Shown here in pieces: positions 1,490 through 4,945 of a stretch of DNA of 24,255 bases (the first letter of the stretch is position 1; each line of letters begins with the position of its first letter). The translations under genes were made by a program, and so were the position numbers. Below the pieces are notes generated by a model that searched no databases, was not told where the DNA came from, and worked only from the letters and a program-made list of their open reading frames with translations. Source of the stretch: a virus; the UHGV virus genome UHGV-0262927; one strand, 5' to 3'.

Positions 1490-1750
1490 TTCCCCATCTG
1501 ACATATAGCATTTGCTCTTAAACGTATAGGAAAACTATATCTTTAGTAGCAGCATTTCGTGATTGTTGCCAACAATCACTTTGCTGAACAGGGCTTGCCC
1601 CTGTTAATGATGGATTTATCCAATAAAAGATCGCATCGTAGACGCATATAAAGTAAAAGGAAAATTAATTAAACGCTCACAATAAAAAGCAGCGGTTCGT
1701 GATTGTTCGAAACAATCACTTCGCTGTAATAAAATAGTAAGGAAAATAAA
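1490..1750. repeat. Structured repeat unit copy A (~230 bp core 1498-1726) with two GTGATTGT-N5-ACAATCAC hairpins
   Basis: Aligns base-for-base with 4694-4920; hairpin 1 at 1550-1586, small hairpin ACAGGG-cttgc-CCCTGT at 1588-1604, hairpin 2 at 1690-1726; on the minus strand hairpin 2 is followed by TTTTTA (1684-1688), i.e. terminator-like. Confidence 0.7.
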
Positions 1751-2025
1751 GTTCGATAATGCCAGTATGTGCTATTTATATAAGGCACCAGCCAACTAAA
1801 AAGAAGAACTGTTTTCTATATTTTATCCTTTTAAAAATCATCCAAGGCTTCACTATTTAAATAATGAATAAGGAAAATGCTCTCAAACCAGCTATAGCTT
1901 AAAACAAAGTATGCACTTTCGGGAGTTAAAGTCCCAAATCCCGGTACTTAAGATGATAGTGATTATCAGCAATAAAGACTAAATCAGTGTTTTAAACAAC
2001 ATATTATAAGGGGCAATCTATAGGA

Positions 2026-2057
2026 GGTTAATGATGAAATGTTATTCATCATTAACC
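2026..2057. other. Perfect 13-bp inverted repeat (GGTTAATGATGAA / TTCATCATTAACC, 6-nt loop) at the 3' end of the Septu operon; possible terminator
   Basis: Read directly; lies 13 bp below the ptuB stop codon (2070-2072); T-rich stretch follows on the plus strand, none on the minus strand. Confidence 0.4.
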
Positions 2058-2069
2058 TTTCTACTTATA

Positions 2070-2735
2070 TTAAAAACCAACTCTTAAATCGGGATAATTT
2101 GCTGTTAGGAAACCATCCCCCAAGTAATGCCAACGCCAGAAAATTGAAAATGGATGTTCAGTCTTCAACATTGCCTCCAGCATTTCCTCGGCATCTCTCT
2201 TTCTAGAGTTACCTTTACTGGGATCTTTGAGTGTCATCCTAGCCTCAATAAATCTTGAATAATAAAAAAACATCTGTTCGATGAGACTTTCTCTACTTAT
2301 TTTTCTAAGACCAGTATTCTTCAAGTTATAGCACTCATTTAATAGACCCACAGTGCTGACTATGCTTAAAGTTGGTGGATTTACATTTGGAAGAATAACG
2401 ACATCATCATCGGGCATTGACGGCATCTTACAAATTATCTGGTTGAAGATATTAATAGATAAGTCGGTACAATCTAGAATATTTTTATGTCTATTACCTT
2501 TTATCCCATTGCATCTACTGCATGAATAAAATAAATTATCCCAACTGTACTTTAAATTGTCATTACCTTCATGTGGGATGAGATGCTCCACTTCAGCATC
2601 TTGAACTTCATTTCGCTCACACAAATAACATTTTTCGTGAAATAATGGTTTCAGAATTTCAGTAACTTCTGCATCATTATAACGATTCCGGGAAATACAG
2701 TCCGGGGCTGGATAAGTTCTCGCAACATTGAACAT
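2070..2735 (-). CDS. ptuB: HNH endonuclease, Septu PtuB-like (221 aa)
   Basis: Motifs CYLC ... EVEHLIPH ... N ... CSRCN (zinc-finger HNH); start codon 3 nt after the ATPase stop; AAGGAG Shine-Dalgarno 9 nt upstream of the ATG. Confidence 0.65.
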   Translation of the reverse strand: MFNVARTYPAPDCISRNRYNDAEVTEILKPLFHEKCYLCERNEVQDAEVEHLIPHEGNDNLKYSWDNLFYSCSRCNGIKGNRHKNILDCTDLSINIFNQIICKMPSMPDDDVVILPNVNPPTLSIVSTVGLLNECYNLKNTGLRKISRESLIEQMFFYYSRFIEARMTLKDPSKGNSRKRDAEEMLEAMLKTEHPFSIFWRWHYLGDGFLTANYPDLRVGF

Positions 2736-2738
2736 TTA

Positions 2739-3989
2739 TCATTCTCCTTCAGTTGCATCTTTCGCATCTAAAAGAGCATTCCTACCCATTAATAAAAATG
2801 TTCTTGATCTCATATCTAATTGATTTTCATATGGTTGAATGCTATTTACAACCTCTTGTAATTTATCCGTATCAATAATATCATCATTTATTAACAATGC
2901 TAATTTATCTAATTGCTTATTAAGCAGGTCTGATTGAGTATCGACACCAAGTAAACCTTTGACAATTGCCTCATAGGAATACATTGATAGATCTTCAAGT
3001 TGTTCATTCGTGCTTAGATCATAAATTATCGCATCATTCACAGATTGAACAACAAAAGGAGAATGAGTTGTGACAATGAATTGGATATTGGGGAAGGCAC
3101 TTACAAAAAATGAGAAAATTTTCCGTTGTAAAGAAACATGCAAATGAGCATCAATTTCATCAATAAATACAACCCCCGATAACTCATCAGATGTGATACC
3201 TTTAAGTTCAACTTTCATCAATAAGTCAGCATATATACTTAAAATAGACTGATAGCCTGATGAAAGTTGATTAAATCTATAAGGAGATTTGTTATCCTGC
3301 AAAATATAAAATGTTTGCTCCTCCGCATCATAATTAAGCTTTAATGAATCATCCTCAAATAAATACCGAAATTGTTTTTGTAAAAAATAAAACCAAGAAT
3401 CTACCTTATCCCCTTTAACTTTATCATTCTCTCTAGCAATTAAATGACTCCCATAGTTATAAAACGAAACCAAATAACGTTCAAATTTATTGCTTGTATC
3501 CTGAGATAAACTAACTGAAATCTCCTCATCCTTTAAAGTTTTTAAACTGTCAATAGTTCCTGAATGAGATATGTTATTTTCTCTTACAGCGCCGAAATAG
3601 CGTAATAAAGACTTTCTCTCATTGAAATCGATACAGTATTTATTTAAATCAGCTAGTTCAATGCGTATATCTCTCATTTTTTTTAACTGTTTTTCATAAT
3701 CAGCTATTTCCTGTTTCCAACTGAAATAATTTCTATCCGTCGGAGGTGTATGTTGCATCCAATTTTGTCTGTTTGATATTTCTTGTTTTATTTGATCATA
3801 TGTTTTATATTCATACTGTTCTATTTGAGCAGACACCTGCTCATATAGTAGTTTTAAAAACCTAGTTTTTCCACATCCATTCCCCCCTGTAATTATGACA
3901 TTTTTACCATCAACATTTATATTTATGTTCTTATTTGTATCAGGAAGTAACACATGTATATGTTTTATTACATTGCTTTTATTGAGCAT
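2739..3989 (-). CDS. ptuA: ABC/AAA-type ATPase, Septu PtuA-like (416 aa from ATG 3989; ORF track gives TTG 4004, 421 aa)
   Basis: Walker A GGNGCGKT, ABC-signature-like LSSGYQ, Walker B VVFIDEIDAHLH, H-loop VTTHSP; tightly coupled to the downstream HNH gene. Confidence 0.65.
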   Translation of the reverse strand: MLNKSNVIKHIHVLLPDTNKNININVDGKNVIITGGNGCGKTRFLKLLYEQVSAQIEQYEYKTYDQIKQEISNRQNWMQHTPPTDRNYFSWKQEIADYEKQLKKMRDIRIELADLNKYCIDFNERKSLLRYFGAVRENNISHSGTIDSLKTLKDEEISVSLSQDTSNKFERYLVSFYNYGSHLIARENDKVKGDKVDSWFYFLQKQFRYLFEDDSLKLNYDAEEQTFYILQDNKSPYRFNQLSSGYQSILSIYADLLMKVELKGITSDELSGVVFIDEIDAHLHVSLQRKIFSFFVSAFPNIQFIVTTHSPFVVQSVNDAIIYDLSTNEQLEDLSMYSYEAIVKGLLGVDTQSDLLNKQLDKLALLINDDIIDTDKLQEVVNSIQPYENQLDMRSRTFLLMGRNALLDAKDATEGE

Positions 3990-4198
3990 AATTTTTAATC
4001 TCAACGTTGATATATTAGATCATTTTAACACTTTAATCACCAGATTAAAACCAATATTATTTGATAATAATATATACAATAATTATAAGATTCAACACCT
4101 CTAATCCATTTGCAGAGTTATTAATTTTTATTTACCCATTCTGAAAAATCATAATTAATAAAATATAAAAATAATTTTATTCCCCCGTATATTCAAAC

Positions 4199-4313
4199 GC
4201 CGCATTTGCTCTTAAACGTATAGGCGAAATATATTTTTAGCAGCAGCACTTTGTTAGTGTTGCCAACAATCACTTTGCTGGACAGGGCTTGTCCCTGTTA
4301 ATGATAGTTTTTT
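4199..4313. repeat. Structured repeat unit copy B (partial, left half only; hairpin 1 degenerate)
   Basis: Matches the first ~115 bp of units A and C including the ACAGGG-cttgt-CCCTGT hairpin; lacks the second hairpin. Confidence 0.6.
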
Positions 4314-4508
4314 CAATTAATAATTTCTTCCATATAAATTACTGCCTGTAATCAGTTATAAGAGCTTTAAGCGTGAAGATGGTTATATTTGTTATCTTTC
4401 AGATCCCAAAGCCTTAGCAAGCTTCCTGTGCGGTTTATTAACAGTTTATAGAACACTTTTACTTATGCTTATTGATATTTATTTTTACCTGATACATTAA
4501 ATTATTAT

Positions 4509-4559
4509 TTTTGAAAATACATCCATTGTGCTGGCGCACGGCTACGCCCTTGACACTGA
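4509..4559. repeat. Conserved GC-rich block, copy 2 (ttttgaaaa...tgtgctggcgcacggctacgcccttgacactga)
   Basis: Matches 1328-1380; sits ~130 bp before unit C, as copy 1 sits ~110 bp before unit A. Confidence 0.6.
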
Positions 4560-4685
4560 TATAAAACTATTTTTCTTGATTACTTATAAGTTATTAATAC
4601 TTTTATCAATGGAAAACAATGTGACCAGTATAAAGATCATTTACTCCACTGGGTTAGAACTCAGATCTTATGCTTGAATATAATA

Positions 4686-4945
4686 TCTTCCCTCTGACAT
4701 ATAGCATTTGCTCTTAAACGCATAGGAAAGCTATATCCTTAGTAGCAGCACTTCGTGATTGTTGCCAACAATCACCCTGCTGTGAGGAGCTTGTCTCCGA
4801 TAATGATGGATTTATCCAAAAAAGATCGCGTCGTAGACGCTAATAAAACAAAAGAAATCTTAATTAAGCTCTCACAATAAAAGCAGCGGTTCGTGATTGT
4901 TCGAAACAATCACTTCGCTGATAGTAGTTATTAAGGAATACAATA
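4686..4945. repeat. Structured repeat unit copy C (~227 bp core 4694-4920)
   Basis: Same hairpin architecture as unit A; small hairpin here is GGAG-cttgt-CTCC, with two compensatory pair changes relative to A; hairpin 2 at 4884-4920 followed on the minus strand by TTTTAT. Confidence 0.7.

What the first reader, a model, noticed from the sequence alone, without database searches (positions are those of the whole stretch)
1490..4945. Family of ~230-bp structured repeats bracketing the Septu operon, with compensatory base changes preserving hairpins
Two full copies (1498-1726, 4694-4920) and one half copy (4199-4313) lie in direct orientation on both sides of the defence operon. Each full copy has two hairpins built on the same arms (GTGATTGT-N5-ACAATCAC, wrapped by CAGCR...YGCTG) near its two ends, and a small internal hairpin. 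That small hairpin is ACAGGG/CCCTGT in copies A and B but GGAG/CTCC in copy C: two pair positions changed on both arms together, which indicates selection on structure, not sequence. Subterminal same-strand hairpins at both ends resemble IS200/IS605-type ends or their miniature non-autonomous derivatives. Alternatives are a small-RNA gene family (hairpin 2 is followed by a T-run on the minus strand) or cassette boundary sites that mobilise the Septu module.
Basis: seen in the sequence. Interest (0 to 1): 0.8.

Follow-up and report, generated by a model that had tools for sequence, protein, structure and literature searches.

The report
Conserved structured non-coding module of ROD21-like islands
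The repeats around the Septu defence genes are real. They are copies of a conserved, hairpin-rich non-coding module that ROD21-like mobilizable genomic islands carry upstream of their replication-like gene, and they are not transposon ends or cassette sites.

Summary
**Observation: confirmed.**
- Copies A (1494-1726) and C (4690-4920) are 88% identical. B (4202-4320) is a half copy.
- The big hairpin occurs five times in the window, against none in shuffled sequence.
- The small hairpin differs between copies by two compensatory pairs.

**Interpretation: largely not supported.**
- Window 1-11072 is the right part of a tRNA-Ser-integrated mobilizable island of the ROD21-like (EARL) family.
- The repeat ("R") is a native module of that family. 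It lies about 290 bp upstream of the SEN1990/RepL-like gene.
- It is found in 780 of 5426 complete E. coli genomes and never on plasmids. It holds the same position in eight other enterobacterial genera and in the RepL-like-encoding metagenome contigs inspected.
- Relatives carry one copy, or a half plus a full copy, with no cargo. Septu sits between copies in 14 genomes, and that arrangement is a mosaic of two island lineages.
- No transposase and no dispersal were found.

**What R looks like.**
- It is strand-specific and folds. Small-hairpin pairs covary, and G·T wobbles outnumber A·C 25 to 5 on the + strand.
- The big-hairpin arms are invariant, and R is independent of the Rep allele.
- Some islands carry an extra core module upstream of mobQ.

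**Function: untested.** I favour a structured regulatory RNA (about 0.4) over a single-stranded-DNA signal (about 0.25). R matches no Rfam family and is not described in the papers I read.

The parts
1494..1726 (+). R copy A (full module). It contains a conserved 5' block, big hairpin 1, a small hairpin, a mini hairpin, hairpin H5 and big hairpin 2.
   Evidence: BLAST against copy C: 88% over 233 nt. Alignments A1 to A3.
1508..1541 (+). Conserved 5' block of copy A: GCATTTGCTCTTAAAC ... CTATATC. Its geometry fits a weak sigma-70 promoter (TTGCTC-18-TATATC) whose start would fall at hairpin 1.
   Evidence: Nearly invariant across 72 units from several genera. Only 7 of 12 consensus matches, so the promoter scan did not flag it.
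1550..1586 (+). Big hairpin 1 of copy A: CAGCA/TGCTG outer stem, 4x2 internal loop, GTGATTGTT/AACAATCAC inner stem, variable loop.
   Evidence: Seven inner pairs never vary in 71 distinct units.
1588..1604 (+). Small hairpin of copy A: ACAGGG-CTTGC-CCCTGT.
   Evidence: Read. Covarying pairs.
1611..1622 (+). Mini hairpin / 12-nt palindrome TGGATTTATCCA of copy A. It contains a DnaA-box-like TTATCCAAT, 7 of 9 to the consensus as recalled from memory.
   Evidence: Invariant in all full units. One GGGAT/ATCCC variant in a mobQ-side module.
1632..1646 (.). Hairpin H5 of copy A (GCATC-GTA-GACGC). It looks like a terminator on the - strand.
   Evidence: Terminator-like hit. The T-A pair is replaced by G-C in 22 units.
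1690..1726 (+). Big hairpin 2 of copy A: CAGCG/CGCTG outer stem, same inner arms as hairpin 1.
1740..1982 (+). Remnant of the region that lies between R and a different (181-aa) RepL-like allele in other islands.
   Evidence: 88% identical to L110 6001-6243, where it precedes the 181-aa RepL-like gene.
1983..4201 (-). Septu cassette: ptuB 2070-2735, ptuA 2739-4004, plus flanks.
   Evidence: PADLOC: PtuA 8.8e-147 and PtuB 1.3e-85. Present in 14 of 5426 E. coli genomes; the four such regions inspected (window, L001, L005, metagenome contig L081) share this context.
4202..4320 (+). R copy B: half module (5' block, degenerate hairpin 1 at 4244-4280, small hairpin at 4282-4298).
   Evidence: Covariance-model score 72.7 bits, against 94-104 for intact cores.
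4314..4689 (+). Spacer between the half and full copies. It includes the shared upstream motif at 4527-4562 (its counterpart is at 1349-1383).
   Evidence: 88-92% identical in islands that carry half plus full copies without cargo.
4690..4920 (+). R copy C (full module, native position upstream of the rep-like gene). Hairpin 1 at 4746-4782, small hairpin at 4786-4798, mini hairpin at 4807-4818, H5 at 4828-4840, hairpin 2 at 4884-4920.
   Evidence: 98.8% identical to the single copy of L003.
5017..5044 (-). Promoter-like site facing leftward into R (TTTACT-16-TATAAT).
   Evidence: 10 of 12 matches. The same site is in L003. The TATAAT is kept in Brenneria and Mangrovibacter.
5067..5155 (.). Four iteron-like 21-23-bp repeats with the palindromic core CTATGTTCGAACATAG. 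One extra copy lies at 1470-1490.
   Evidence: (D3, I1, I17). They differ between rep alleles.
5214..6011 (+). SEN1990/RepL-like winged-helix gene (RefSeq start at 5277).
   Evidence: RefSeq annotation. Pfam HTH_36 and RepL, both weak. Literature: PMC10655114.

Best explanation
**What it is (shown).**
- R is a roughly 230-bp structured non-coding module native to ROD21-like (EARL) integrative mobilizable islands.
- Its home is the long divergent control region between a leftward pair of small hypothetical genes and the rightward SEN1990/RepL-like gene.
- It is inherited with the island and kept across enterobacterial genera. It is often present as a tandem half plus full array.

**Why it brackets Septu (shown and inferred).**
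- The Septu operon was fixed between two such modules by recombination between two island lineages.
- Copy A still carries the upstream region of another rep allele.
- The bracket is a recombination scar in a repeat array and not a mobilisation device.

**How it works (inferred, about 0.4).**
- R acts as structured RNA in this control region.
- The + strand folds into big hairpin 1, a small hairpin 1-2 nt further on, and a mini hairpin.
- This could be a short RNA started from the conserved TTGCTC-18-TATAT(T/C) block. It could also be a cis-acting leader of the rightward transcript.
- A conserved leftward promoter beyond hairpin 2, together with the H5 terminator-like hairpin, would give a counter-transcript of about 190 nt across hairpin 2.
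- Together these would set expression of the rep-like or transfer genes, in the manner of plasmid counter-transcript or leader control.
For: **Identity and position**
- The window matches an island with integrase, MobQ relaxase, TraD, PilV, H-NS paralogues, an AlpA-type protein and a RepL-like gene at tRNA-Ser. This backbone is the one described for EARL islands.
- R is found in 780 of 5426 E. coli genomes, all chromosomal, median one place.
- R is in the same position in all 11 RepL-anchored loci, which include eight other genera, at 73-79% identity outside Escherichia. The module pattern also matched 78 metagenome contigs.

**Origin of the bracket**
- L003 has a single copy. L002 and L004 have half plus full copies with no cargo.
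- Window 1740-1982 is homologous to the upstream region of a 181-aa rep allele.

**Folding**
- RNAalifold independently recovers both big hairpins, the small hairpin, the mini hairpin and H5.
- Covariation in anchored units: two small-hairpin pairs, one H5 pair, one outer-stem pair.
- With divergent modules added, 13 of 24 pairs change on both sides, against 3.2 in shuffles and 2-6 when the partners are slid.
- Outside loop-closing pairs there are 25 G·T cells against 5 A·C cells, so the + strand is the folding strand.

**Transcription signals**
- The conserved 5' block sits at promoter distance from hairpin 1, and divergent units keep TTG...TATATT.
- The leftward TTTACT-16-TATAAT site and the H5 terminator-like hairpin recur in E. 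coli, and H5 also in Brenneria and Mangrovibacter.

**Modularity**
- Tandem units each carry the 5' block.
- The core modules upstream of mobQ have the same orientation.
Against: - No transcript data were available.
- The + strand promoter is weak: 7 of 12 matches, and many E. coli copies lack the -7 T. The scan did not flag it.
- No canonical terminator follows the small hairpin in full copies.
- The inner arms of the big hairpin are invariant while its loop varies freely. This is more typical of sequence-specific recognition of DNA duplex than of RNA.
- The wobble counts for H5 (9 against 4) do not favour the - strand.
- Covariation rests on a handful of independent events in related sequences, and alignment A5 was fitted to the model.
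- Published work found no effect of deleting SEN1990 on ROD21 copy number, so what the region controls is unclear.
Confidence: 0.42

Rival explanations
1. R is a single-stranded-DNA signal, comparable to an ssi or sso site. When the island is single-stranded, the + strand hairpins would be recognised by a host or conserved island protein that primes complementary-strand synthesis. That could happen during mobilisation, during rolling-circle replication, or on the lagging strand at the rep/iteron origin.
For: - The stem sequence is invariant while the loops vary. The asymmetric internal loop is conserved.
- Folding is strand-specific and all modules in an island share one orientation.
- R does not depend on the Rep allele, whereas the iterons change with it.
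- Modules lie next to the iterons and, in seven islands, in the traD-mobQ region that holds the putative oriT.
- No convincing promoter or terminator is needed for this reading.
- From memory: ICEBs1 has an sso, and plasmid ssi sites lie near both oriV and oriT.
Against: - The R1 model finds nothing in phage G4, whose annotated complementary-strand origin has three hairpins followed by CTG.
- No sequence relatives exist on plasmids or phages.
- The window's own island lacks the mobQ-side module.
- If the relaxase gene is transferred last, as in many systems (from memory), the + strand would not be the transferred strand.
- The reading does not explain the conserved 5' block at a fixed distance from hairpin 1.
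Confidence: 0.25
2. R is double-stranded protein-binding DNA. The 9-N3-9 palindromes would be operators or origin accessory sites for a dimeric regulator or host factor, with looping between sites about 140 bp apart. On this reading the hairpin potential is incidental.
For: - The arms GTGATTGTT/AACAATCAC are invariant and the central spacer varies freely, which is typical of operators.
- Sites are repeated at regular spacing in a divergent promoter region.
- TGGATTTATCCA and the 5' block are invariant.
Against: - The outer stem CAGC(R)...(Y)GCTG lies asymmetrically about the dyad (4 nt against 2 nt). Its fifth pair is A-T in hairpin 1 and G-C in hairpin 2, with G·T intermediates.
- The small hairpin covaries at all six pairs while its loops vary.
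- The + strand wobble bias has no explanation in duplex DNA.
Confidence: 0.12
3. R copies are boundary sites for recombination that moves defence cassettes in and out of the island.
For: - Septu lies between direct copies.
- Presence/absence polymorphism exists.
- One metagenomic island (L036) has two R loci 5.5 kb apart.
- The shared homology ends close to the outer hairpins.
Against: - Only one cargo was found between copies. It occurs in 14 of 5426 genomes, and the instances inspected share the same junctions though they have diverged by about 5%.
- The right junction cuts into the conserved 5' block, and the left junction lies 256 bp beyond hairpin 2.
- Other variable genes in these islands, some of them defence-related (SIR2, TIR-SIR2, DUF6602, a restriction endonuclease), lie elsewhere and are not flanked by R.
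- Half plus full arrays without cargo are common, including in other genera.
Confidence: 0.06
4. R is a non-autonomous derivative of an IS200/IS605-type element or a similar miniature transposon.
For: Same-strand hairpins lie near both ends of the unit.
Against: - No transposase is annotated in the 41-kb source region or found among the flanking window ORFs scanned.
- The position is fixed and syntenic across genera. The median is one place per genome, with none on plasmids or phages.
- The two end hairpins share the same arms, whereas (from memory) IS200/IS605 ends carry distinct left-end and right-end hairpins.
Confidence: 0.02
5. The copies are a neutral local duplication with no function.
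For: Copy B is decaying: its hairpin 1 has two mismatches to the hairpin pattern in the left arm.
Against: - R is conserved across nine genera, with invariant blocks in an otherwise 73-79% identical region.
- Compensatory changes occur.
Confidence: 0.02

Closest known systems
Counter-transcript and leader RNA control regions of plasmid rep genes (R1 CopA/CopT, pT181, pIP501, FinP/traJ). Recalled from memory.
   Same: - A non-coding region upstream of a rep or transfer gene.
- Two or three consecutive stem-loops, with compensatory changes.
- An oppositely oriented promoter-like site and a terminator-like hairpin.
- A terminator-like structure just upstream of the rep-like gene.
   Different: - No transcript has been shown.
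- The stems are invariant in sequence.
- The module is shared by islands with unrelated rep alleles and iterons.
- It is tandemly repeated and also occurs near mobQ.
- It matches no Rfam family.
Single-strand initiation or origin signals (G4-type ssi, plasmid sso, ICEBs1 sso1). Recalled from memory. The G4 record was inspected.
   Same: - A cluster of strand-specific hairpins in non-coding DNA.
- Location near replication and transfer origins.
- Independence from the initiator allele.
- A CTG at the 3' base of the big hairpin.
   Different: - No sequence or covariance-model similarity to the G4 complementary-strand origin.
- The CTG lies inside the stem.
- The function is untested, and the transferred strand is unknown.
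IS200/IS605 ends and their miniature derivatives; REP/BIME elements
   Same: Imperfect palindromes on one strand near the ends of a repeated unit.
   Different: - No transposase and no RAYT protein.
- Not dispersed and not polymorphic in position.
- Low copy number.
HK022 put-type cis-acting antitermination RNAs. Recalled from memory.
   Same: - Two stem-loops separated by 1-2 unpaired bases.
- Present in more than one copy per element, ahead of operons in horizontally acquired DNA.
   Different: There is no sequence similarity to test and no evidence of antitermination. The resemblance is one of shape only.

Membership tests
IS200/IS605 element or miniature derivative | Y1 (HUH) transposase or TnpB in the element, or an autonomous partner with matching ends. 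| tested here: not met
   No transposase is annotated in the 41-kb source region. None of the ten ORFs flanking the repeats and the Septu operon gave a transposase Pfam hit. A genome-wide partner was not searched for.
IS200/IS605 element or miniature derivative | Dispersed copies at different loci, with insertion polymorphism. | tested here: not met
   1176 places in 780 genomes, median one, all chromosomal. Every locus inspected has R at the same syntenic position. No phage hits. The only four hits in the plasmid collection are records of 0.3-4.8 Mb, which I read as chromosomal sequence.
IS200/IS605 element or miniature derivative | Distinct subterminal left-end and right-end hairpins next to a specific target tetranucleotide or pentanucleotide. 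| tested here: inconclusive
   The two hairpins share identical inner arms. No empty or filled target sites exist to examine. ISfinder was not available.
Integron attC / gene cassette array | An IntI integrase with attI, and one attC after each cassette. | tested here: not met
   RefSeq annotates the only integrase in the island simply as a tyrosine-type recombinase, at the far end of the island. Arrays of R occur without genes between the copies.
Rfam RNA families | Covariance-model score at or above the gathering threshold. | tested here: not met
   No hit in the whole window at gathering thresholds. Nothing within the repeat copies at E up to 5; the only hit near them is a weak one at 1766-1792, E = 3.3.
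Plasmid counter-transcript / rep-leader control RNA | A structured RNA with its own promoter and terminator that overlaps the leader of the regulated gene. | tested here: inconclusive
   Promoter-like and terminator-like sites are present and partly conserved, and structure is supported. The + strand promoter is weak, and transcripts cannot be tested here.
G4-type ssi / plasmid sso | An orientation-specific cluster of hairpins on one strand in non-coding DNA near an origin. | tested here: met
G4-type ssi / plasmid sso | Similarity to known ssi or sso sequences or structures. | tested here: not met
   R1 gives no match in phage G4. No similarity was found in the plasmid or phage collections.
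G4-type ssi / plasmid sso | Supports priming of complementary-strand synthesis on single-stranded DNA. | not testable with these tools
   Needs an M13-based ssi assay or a mobilisation assay.
EARL (ROD21-like) genomic islands (the host element) | tRNA-integrated island with a tyrosine integrase, an RDF, TraD, a MOBQ relaxase, type IV pilus genes and an H-NS paralogue. | tested here: met
   Annotation of the identical E. coli region. AlpA-family and H-NS-type Pfam hits. Family description in PMC6035254 and PMC10763509.

The most novel reading that the evidence does not exclude
R is a previously undescribed, family-wide structured element that governs the extrachromosomal life of ROD21-like islands. 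It could be a new sibling small-RNA or leader system. It could also be the first single-strand priming signal described for Gram-negative mobilizable islands. On either reading it would be recognised through its invariant hairpin stems by a conserved factor, and its tandem arrays would double as homology scaffolds through which defence operons such as Septu are captured and exchanged between island lineages.
Probability: 0.3. Interest if true: 0.7.

Novelty: new variant of a known kind. Interest (0 to 1): 0.5.

Why it matters
ROD21-like islands include Salmonella ROD21 and Klebsiella ICEKp258.2. They carry virulence and defence genes, yet how their excised form is replicated, transferred or regulated is poorly understood.

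[quoted passage not shown] This work shows that the region holds a conserved, strand-specific, multi-hairpin module with invariant stems.

That gives a concrete and easily mutated target for experiments on island maintenance and transfer. It also gives a sequence marker for this island family. Finally, it explains one route by which a Septu operon became embedded in the island control region.

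Tried and rejected
- **Rfam.** Searches at gathering and permissive thresholds gave nothing relevant.
- **Plasmid and phage collections.** Only four mis-filed chromosomal records matched, and no phages.
- **Small ORF.** ATGATGGATTTATCC... 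on the + strand is not conserved. Indels in the A-run shift the frame, and many units read ATATTGG.
- **Helix GTATAG/CTATAT in the 5' block.** Rejected. One pair is C·A in 38 of 71 units, and the wobbles conflict (54 G·T against 47 A·C).
- **Long-range helix predicted by RNAalifold** between the 5' block and AGCAGC before hairpin 2. All columns are invariant, so it cannot be tested.
- **Phage G4 complementary-strand origin.** No match to model R1.
- **Hairpins as Rep binding sites.** Rejected, because the iterons change with the rep allele while the hairpins do not.
- **Hairpins as the relaxase oriT.** The conserved candidate oriT block next to mobQ has a different inverted repeat, and the window's island has no module there.
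- **Motif comparisons done by eye against consensus sequences recalled from memory.**
  - Xer/cer-like site: 8 of 11 to one arm only.
  - Fur box: 11 of 19.
  - DnaA box TTATCCA(A/T)A: 8 of 9, but a compensatory variant in one mobQ-side module favours a hairpin.
  - LexA, CRP and LacI-type operators: no match.
  - None of these was convincing.
- **Retron msr-msd.** There is no reverse transcriptase, and R occurs widely without Septu.
- **Minus-strand T-run after hairpin 2 as a conserved terminator.** It is specific to the E. coli lineage.

Full report
**1.

- Copy A (1494-1726) and copy C (4690-4920) are 88.0% identical over 233 nt. Copy B (4202-4320) matches the first 137 nt of the unit at 86.6%.
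- The big hairpin CAGC-N5-GTGATTGT-N5-ACAATCAC-N3-GCTG occurs at 1550-1586, 1690-1726, 4746-4782 and 4884-4920 with no mismatch, and at 4244-4280 with two. All are on the + strand, and none occurs in 100 shuffles.
- The small hairpin is ACAGGG/CCCTGT in A and B, and GGAG/CTCC in C. Two pairs change on both arms.
- Copy A folds better than shuffled sequence on both strands: z = -4.97 on the + strand and -3.72 on the - strand.

**2. What the locus is**

- Window 1-11072 is 100% identical to a chromosomal segment in several E. coli genomes.
- In FDAARGOS_1254 that segment is the right part of a roughly 22-kb island between zinT and tRNA-Ser/mtfA.
- The island carries a tyrosine integrase, PilV and BfpA pilus genes, TraD, a MobQ relaxase, H-NS paralogues, a DUF6387 protein and a "RepL" gene. 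An AlpA-family protein is also present.
- This is the backbone described for the Enterobacteriaceae-associated ROD21-like (EARL) islands.
- The RepL-like gene is the SEN1990 homologue. [quoted passage not shown]
- The two genes between the repeats are a genuine Septu pair: PtuA 8.8e-147 and PtuB 1.3e-85.

**3. R is a native, syntenic module and not a mobile repeat**

- R occurs in 780 of 5426 complete E. coli genomes. There are 1176 places, a median of one per genome, and none on a plasmid.
- The plasmid collection gives only four hits, in records of 0.3-4.8 Mb that look like chromosomal sequence. The phage collection gives none.
- I anchored a search on the RepL-like protein and not on the repeat itself. 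It returned 11 loci, from Escherichia, Brenneria, Pectobacterium, Mangrovibacter, Dickeya, Buttiauxella, Affinibrenneria, Symbiopectobacterium and Citrobacter, plus two metagenome-assembled genomes labelled as Firmicutes.
- Every one of these loci has R about 290 bp upstream of the gene, at 73-79% identity outside Escherichia.
- A metagenome scan anchored on two non-hairpin blocks added 78 contigs.
- Islands integrated at other sites, next to hyaA, cadC or yeeN, have the same arrangement.

**4. Anatomy and conservation**

Read on the + strand, a full unit contains the following elements in order.
- A near-invariant 5' block, (A)TATAGCATTTGCTCTTAAAC...CTATAT.
- Big hairpin 1.
- The small hairpin, 1-2 nt further on.
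- The palindrome TGGATTTATCCA (the mini hairpin).
- A 5-bp G+C-rich hairpin (H5).
- An A-rich stretch.
- Big hairpin 2.

Counts on 72 units aligned without reference to the hairpins:
- The seven core pairs of each big hairpin never vary, while the loop varies freely.
- The small hairpin has two pairs with double changes.
- H5 has one such pair (T-A 45, G-C 22).
- The outer stem of hairpin 2 has one. Its fifth pair is G-C, where hairpin 1 has A-T, with G·T intermediates.

Divergent modules add independent compensatory variants:
- Small hairpin: ACAGTG/CACTGT, ATAGGG/CCCTAT, ACAGGGC/GCCCTGT and TAACAGG/CCTGTTA.
- Big hairpin inner stem: GTGATTAT/ATAATCAC and GTGATTGC/GCAATCAC.
- Mini hairpin: GGGAT/ATCCC.

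Further structure tests:
- I built a covariance model of the 81-nt core and aligned 88 distinct hits. In that alignment 13 of 24 pairs change on both sides, against 3.2 ± 1.3 in shuffles and 2-6 when the partners are slid. The alignment is fitted to the model and the sequences are related, so this is support and not proof.
- RNAalifold independently recovers the same hairpins.
- Outside the loop-closing pairs, non-Watson-Crick cells are G·T in 25 cases and A·C in 5, so the + strand is the one that folds.
- A proposed helix in the 5' block fails the test.

**5. Modularity**

- Islands with different rep alleles have different iterons or none. The 265-aa allele has CTATGTTCGAACATAG repeated four times. 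The 233/235-aa allele has GTTTCCTGTACGGAAAC-type repeats. The 181-aa and 189-aa alleles have no exactly repeated 12-mers.
- All of them share the same R with the same hairpin arms. The hairpins are therefore not the Rep protein's sites.
- Many islands carry a half unit (5' block, hairpin 1, small hairpin) about 450-500 bp upstream of the full unit in E. coli. The spacing is about 300-325 bp in Dickeya, Citrobacter and Buttiauxella.
- Seven islands also carry a core module (hairpin, small hairpin, mini hairpin) in the same orientation. Where I checked (five of them), it lies 580-750 nt upstream of the mobQ-sized gene, in the traD-mobQ intergenic region.
- The window's own island lacks that copy.

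**6. Why the copies bracket Septu**

- L003 has a single R and no cargo.
- L002 and L004 have a half unit, a 373-bp spacer and a full unit, also with no cargo.
- The window has upstream region, full A, cargo, half B, the same spacer, full C, iterons and the rep-like gene.
- The 243 bp to the right of A (1740-1982) are 88% identical to the sequence that follows R and precedes a 181-aa rep allele in 63 other genomes.
- The left part of the window is therefore a remnant of a second island lineage's R-rep control region whose rep gene is gone.
- Septu (1983-4201) sits between that remnant and the half copy of the resident array.
- The right junction falls inside the conserved 5' block, since B starts at GCATTTG and lacks ATATA.
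- The Septu-containing arrangement is found in only 14 genomes. The variant I inspected (L005) has the same layout at about 94-95% identity, and its left copy has lost hairpin 1 by a precise deletion.
- A lambdoid prophage abuts the island end at 11072, where the reference genome has tRNA-Ser. This shows that elements do stack at this site.
- I infer that the bracket is a scar of recombination between stacked or exchanged islands in a repeat-rich region. It is not a cassette site.

**7. Function**

Nothing here measures function. The evidence bears on three readings.
- **Points favouring single-stranded folding:** covariation with variable loops, the asymmetric internal loop, and the + strand wobble bias.
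- **Points favouring RNA:**
  - The conserved 5' block lies at promoter distance from hairpin 1. It reads TTGCTC-18-TATATC/T. Divergent units keep TTG and TATATT, and one mobQ-side module has TTCACG-17/18-TAAAAT.
  - Each tandem unit carries that block.
  - A leftward TTTACT-16-TATAAT site lies beyond hairpin 2.
  - H5 scores as a - strand terminator in E. coli, Brenneria and Mangrovibacter.
  - A + strand terminator-like structure sits just before the rep-like gene.
- **Points against RNA, favouring DNA-level recognition:**
  - The stems are invariant in sequence.
  - The + strand promoter is weak.
  - No terminator follows the small hairpin.
  - Modules lie near both the iterons and the candidate oriT.

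My weights are: structured regulatory RNA about 0.4, single-stranded-DNA signal about 0.25, and duplex operator or origin accessory sites about 0.12.

**8. Comparison and novelty**

- R fails the defining tests for IS200/IS605 derivatives, integron attC sites and every Rfam family.
- It shares architecture, but no sequence, with plasmid counter-transcript or leader regions and with ssi/sso signals.
- I found no description of it in the EARL and ROD21 papers I read.
- It is best filed as a new variant of known kinds of mobile-element control structure, with function unproven.

**9. Limits**

- There are no expression data.
- Covariation rests on perhaps ten independent events.
- The transferred strand is unknown.
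- Several comparisons (put RNA, ssi classes, DnaA, Fur and Xer consensus sequences) rest on memory and are marked as such.

Noticed in passing
window 5067-5155 and 1470-1490: Four iteron-like 21-23-bp repeats with the palindromic core CTATGTTCGAACATAG lie just upstream of the RepL-like gene. The last two, together with a T7 run, score as a + strand terminator. One extra copy lies immediately upstream of repeat copy A. The repeats change with the rep allele in other islands.
   Followed up: partly
window 1349-1383 and 4527-4562: A second shared motif, GTGCTKRCGCACGGCTACGCCCT(T)GACACTGA, lies about 125-140 bp upstream of both full copies. It is conserved across genera (GCACGGCTACGCCCTAAC...). 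Its role is unknown.
   Followed up: partly
window about 11072-11320 and onward: Homology to the island ends at 11072, where the reference genome has tRNA-Ser. From about 11.3 kb the window matches lambdoid phages, and the long minus-strand ORFs beyond are consistent with phage tail genes. No tRNA is detected in the window. This suggests that a prophage is stacked on the island at the same attachment site.
   Followed up: partly
window 6036-6827: The ORF after the RepL-like gene is split (87 aa and 100 aa). RefSeq annotates it as a pseudogene with an internal stop, and it is intact (263-266 aa) in related islands.
   Followed up: no
L005 3916-4125 (E. coli 1504D004): The left repeat copy of this Septu-carrying island has a precise deletion of big hairpin 1, from the outer stem to the outer stem. 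This is as expected for excision of a palindrome during replication.
   Followed up: no
L001 10030-10100 (outside the window, upstream of mobQ): An invariant block, CAATGCCCACCTATACACTGCTACGCAGTGTGTGGGGTCTACCGACGGTTGC(C)TGCCGCAGGC, contains two short inverted repeats. It is a candidate oriT core for the MobQ relaxase.
   Followed up: partly
window 1766-1792; also L031 and L029 downstream of hairpin 2: A further hairpin, GGTGCC-ATTTAxxxx-GGCAC(C), lies about 45 bp after hairpin 2 in islands with the 181-aa and 233-aa rep alleles. In the window it falls under a weak, non-significant Rfam hit (COG2827 RNA, E = 3.3).
   Followed up: no
window 13484-13800: Direct repeats with 21-nt and 42-nt spacing lie inside the 690-aa minus-strand ORF (12142-14214) of the prophage part of the window.
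   Followed up: no
L018 and L026 (genome contigs): Two short contigs from metagenome-assembled genomes labelled Bacillota and Erysipelotrichia carry the RepL-like gene (97% and 76% identity) together with R. This is most likely binning contamination by enterobacterial DNA.
   Followed up: no
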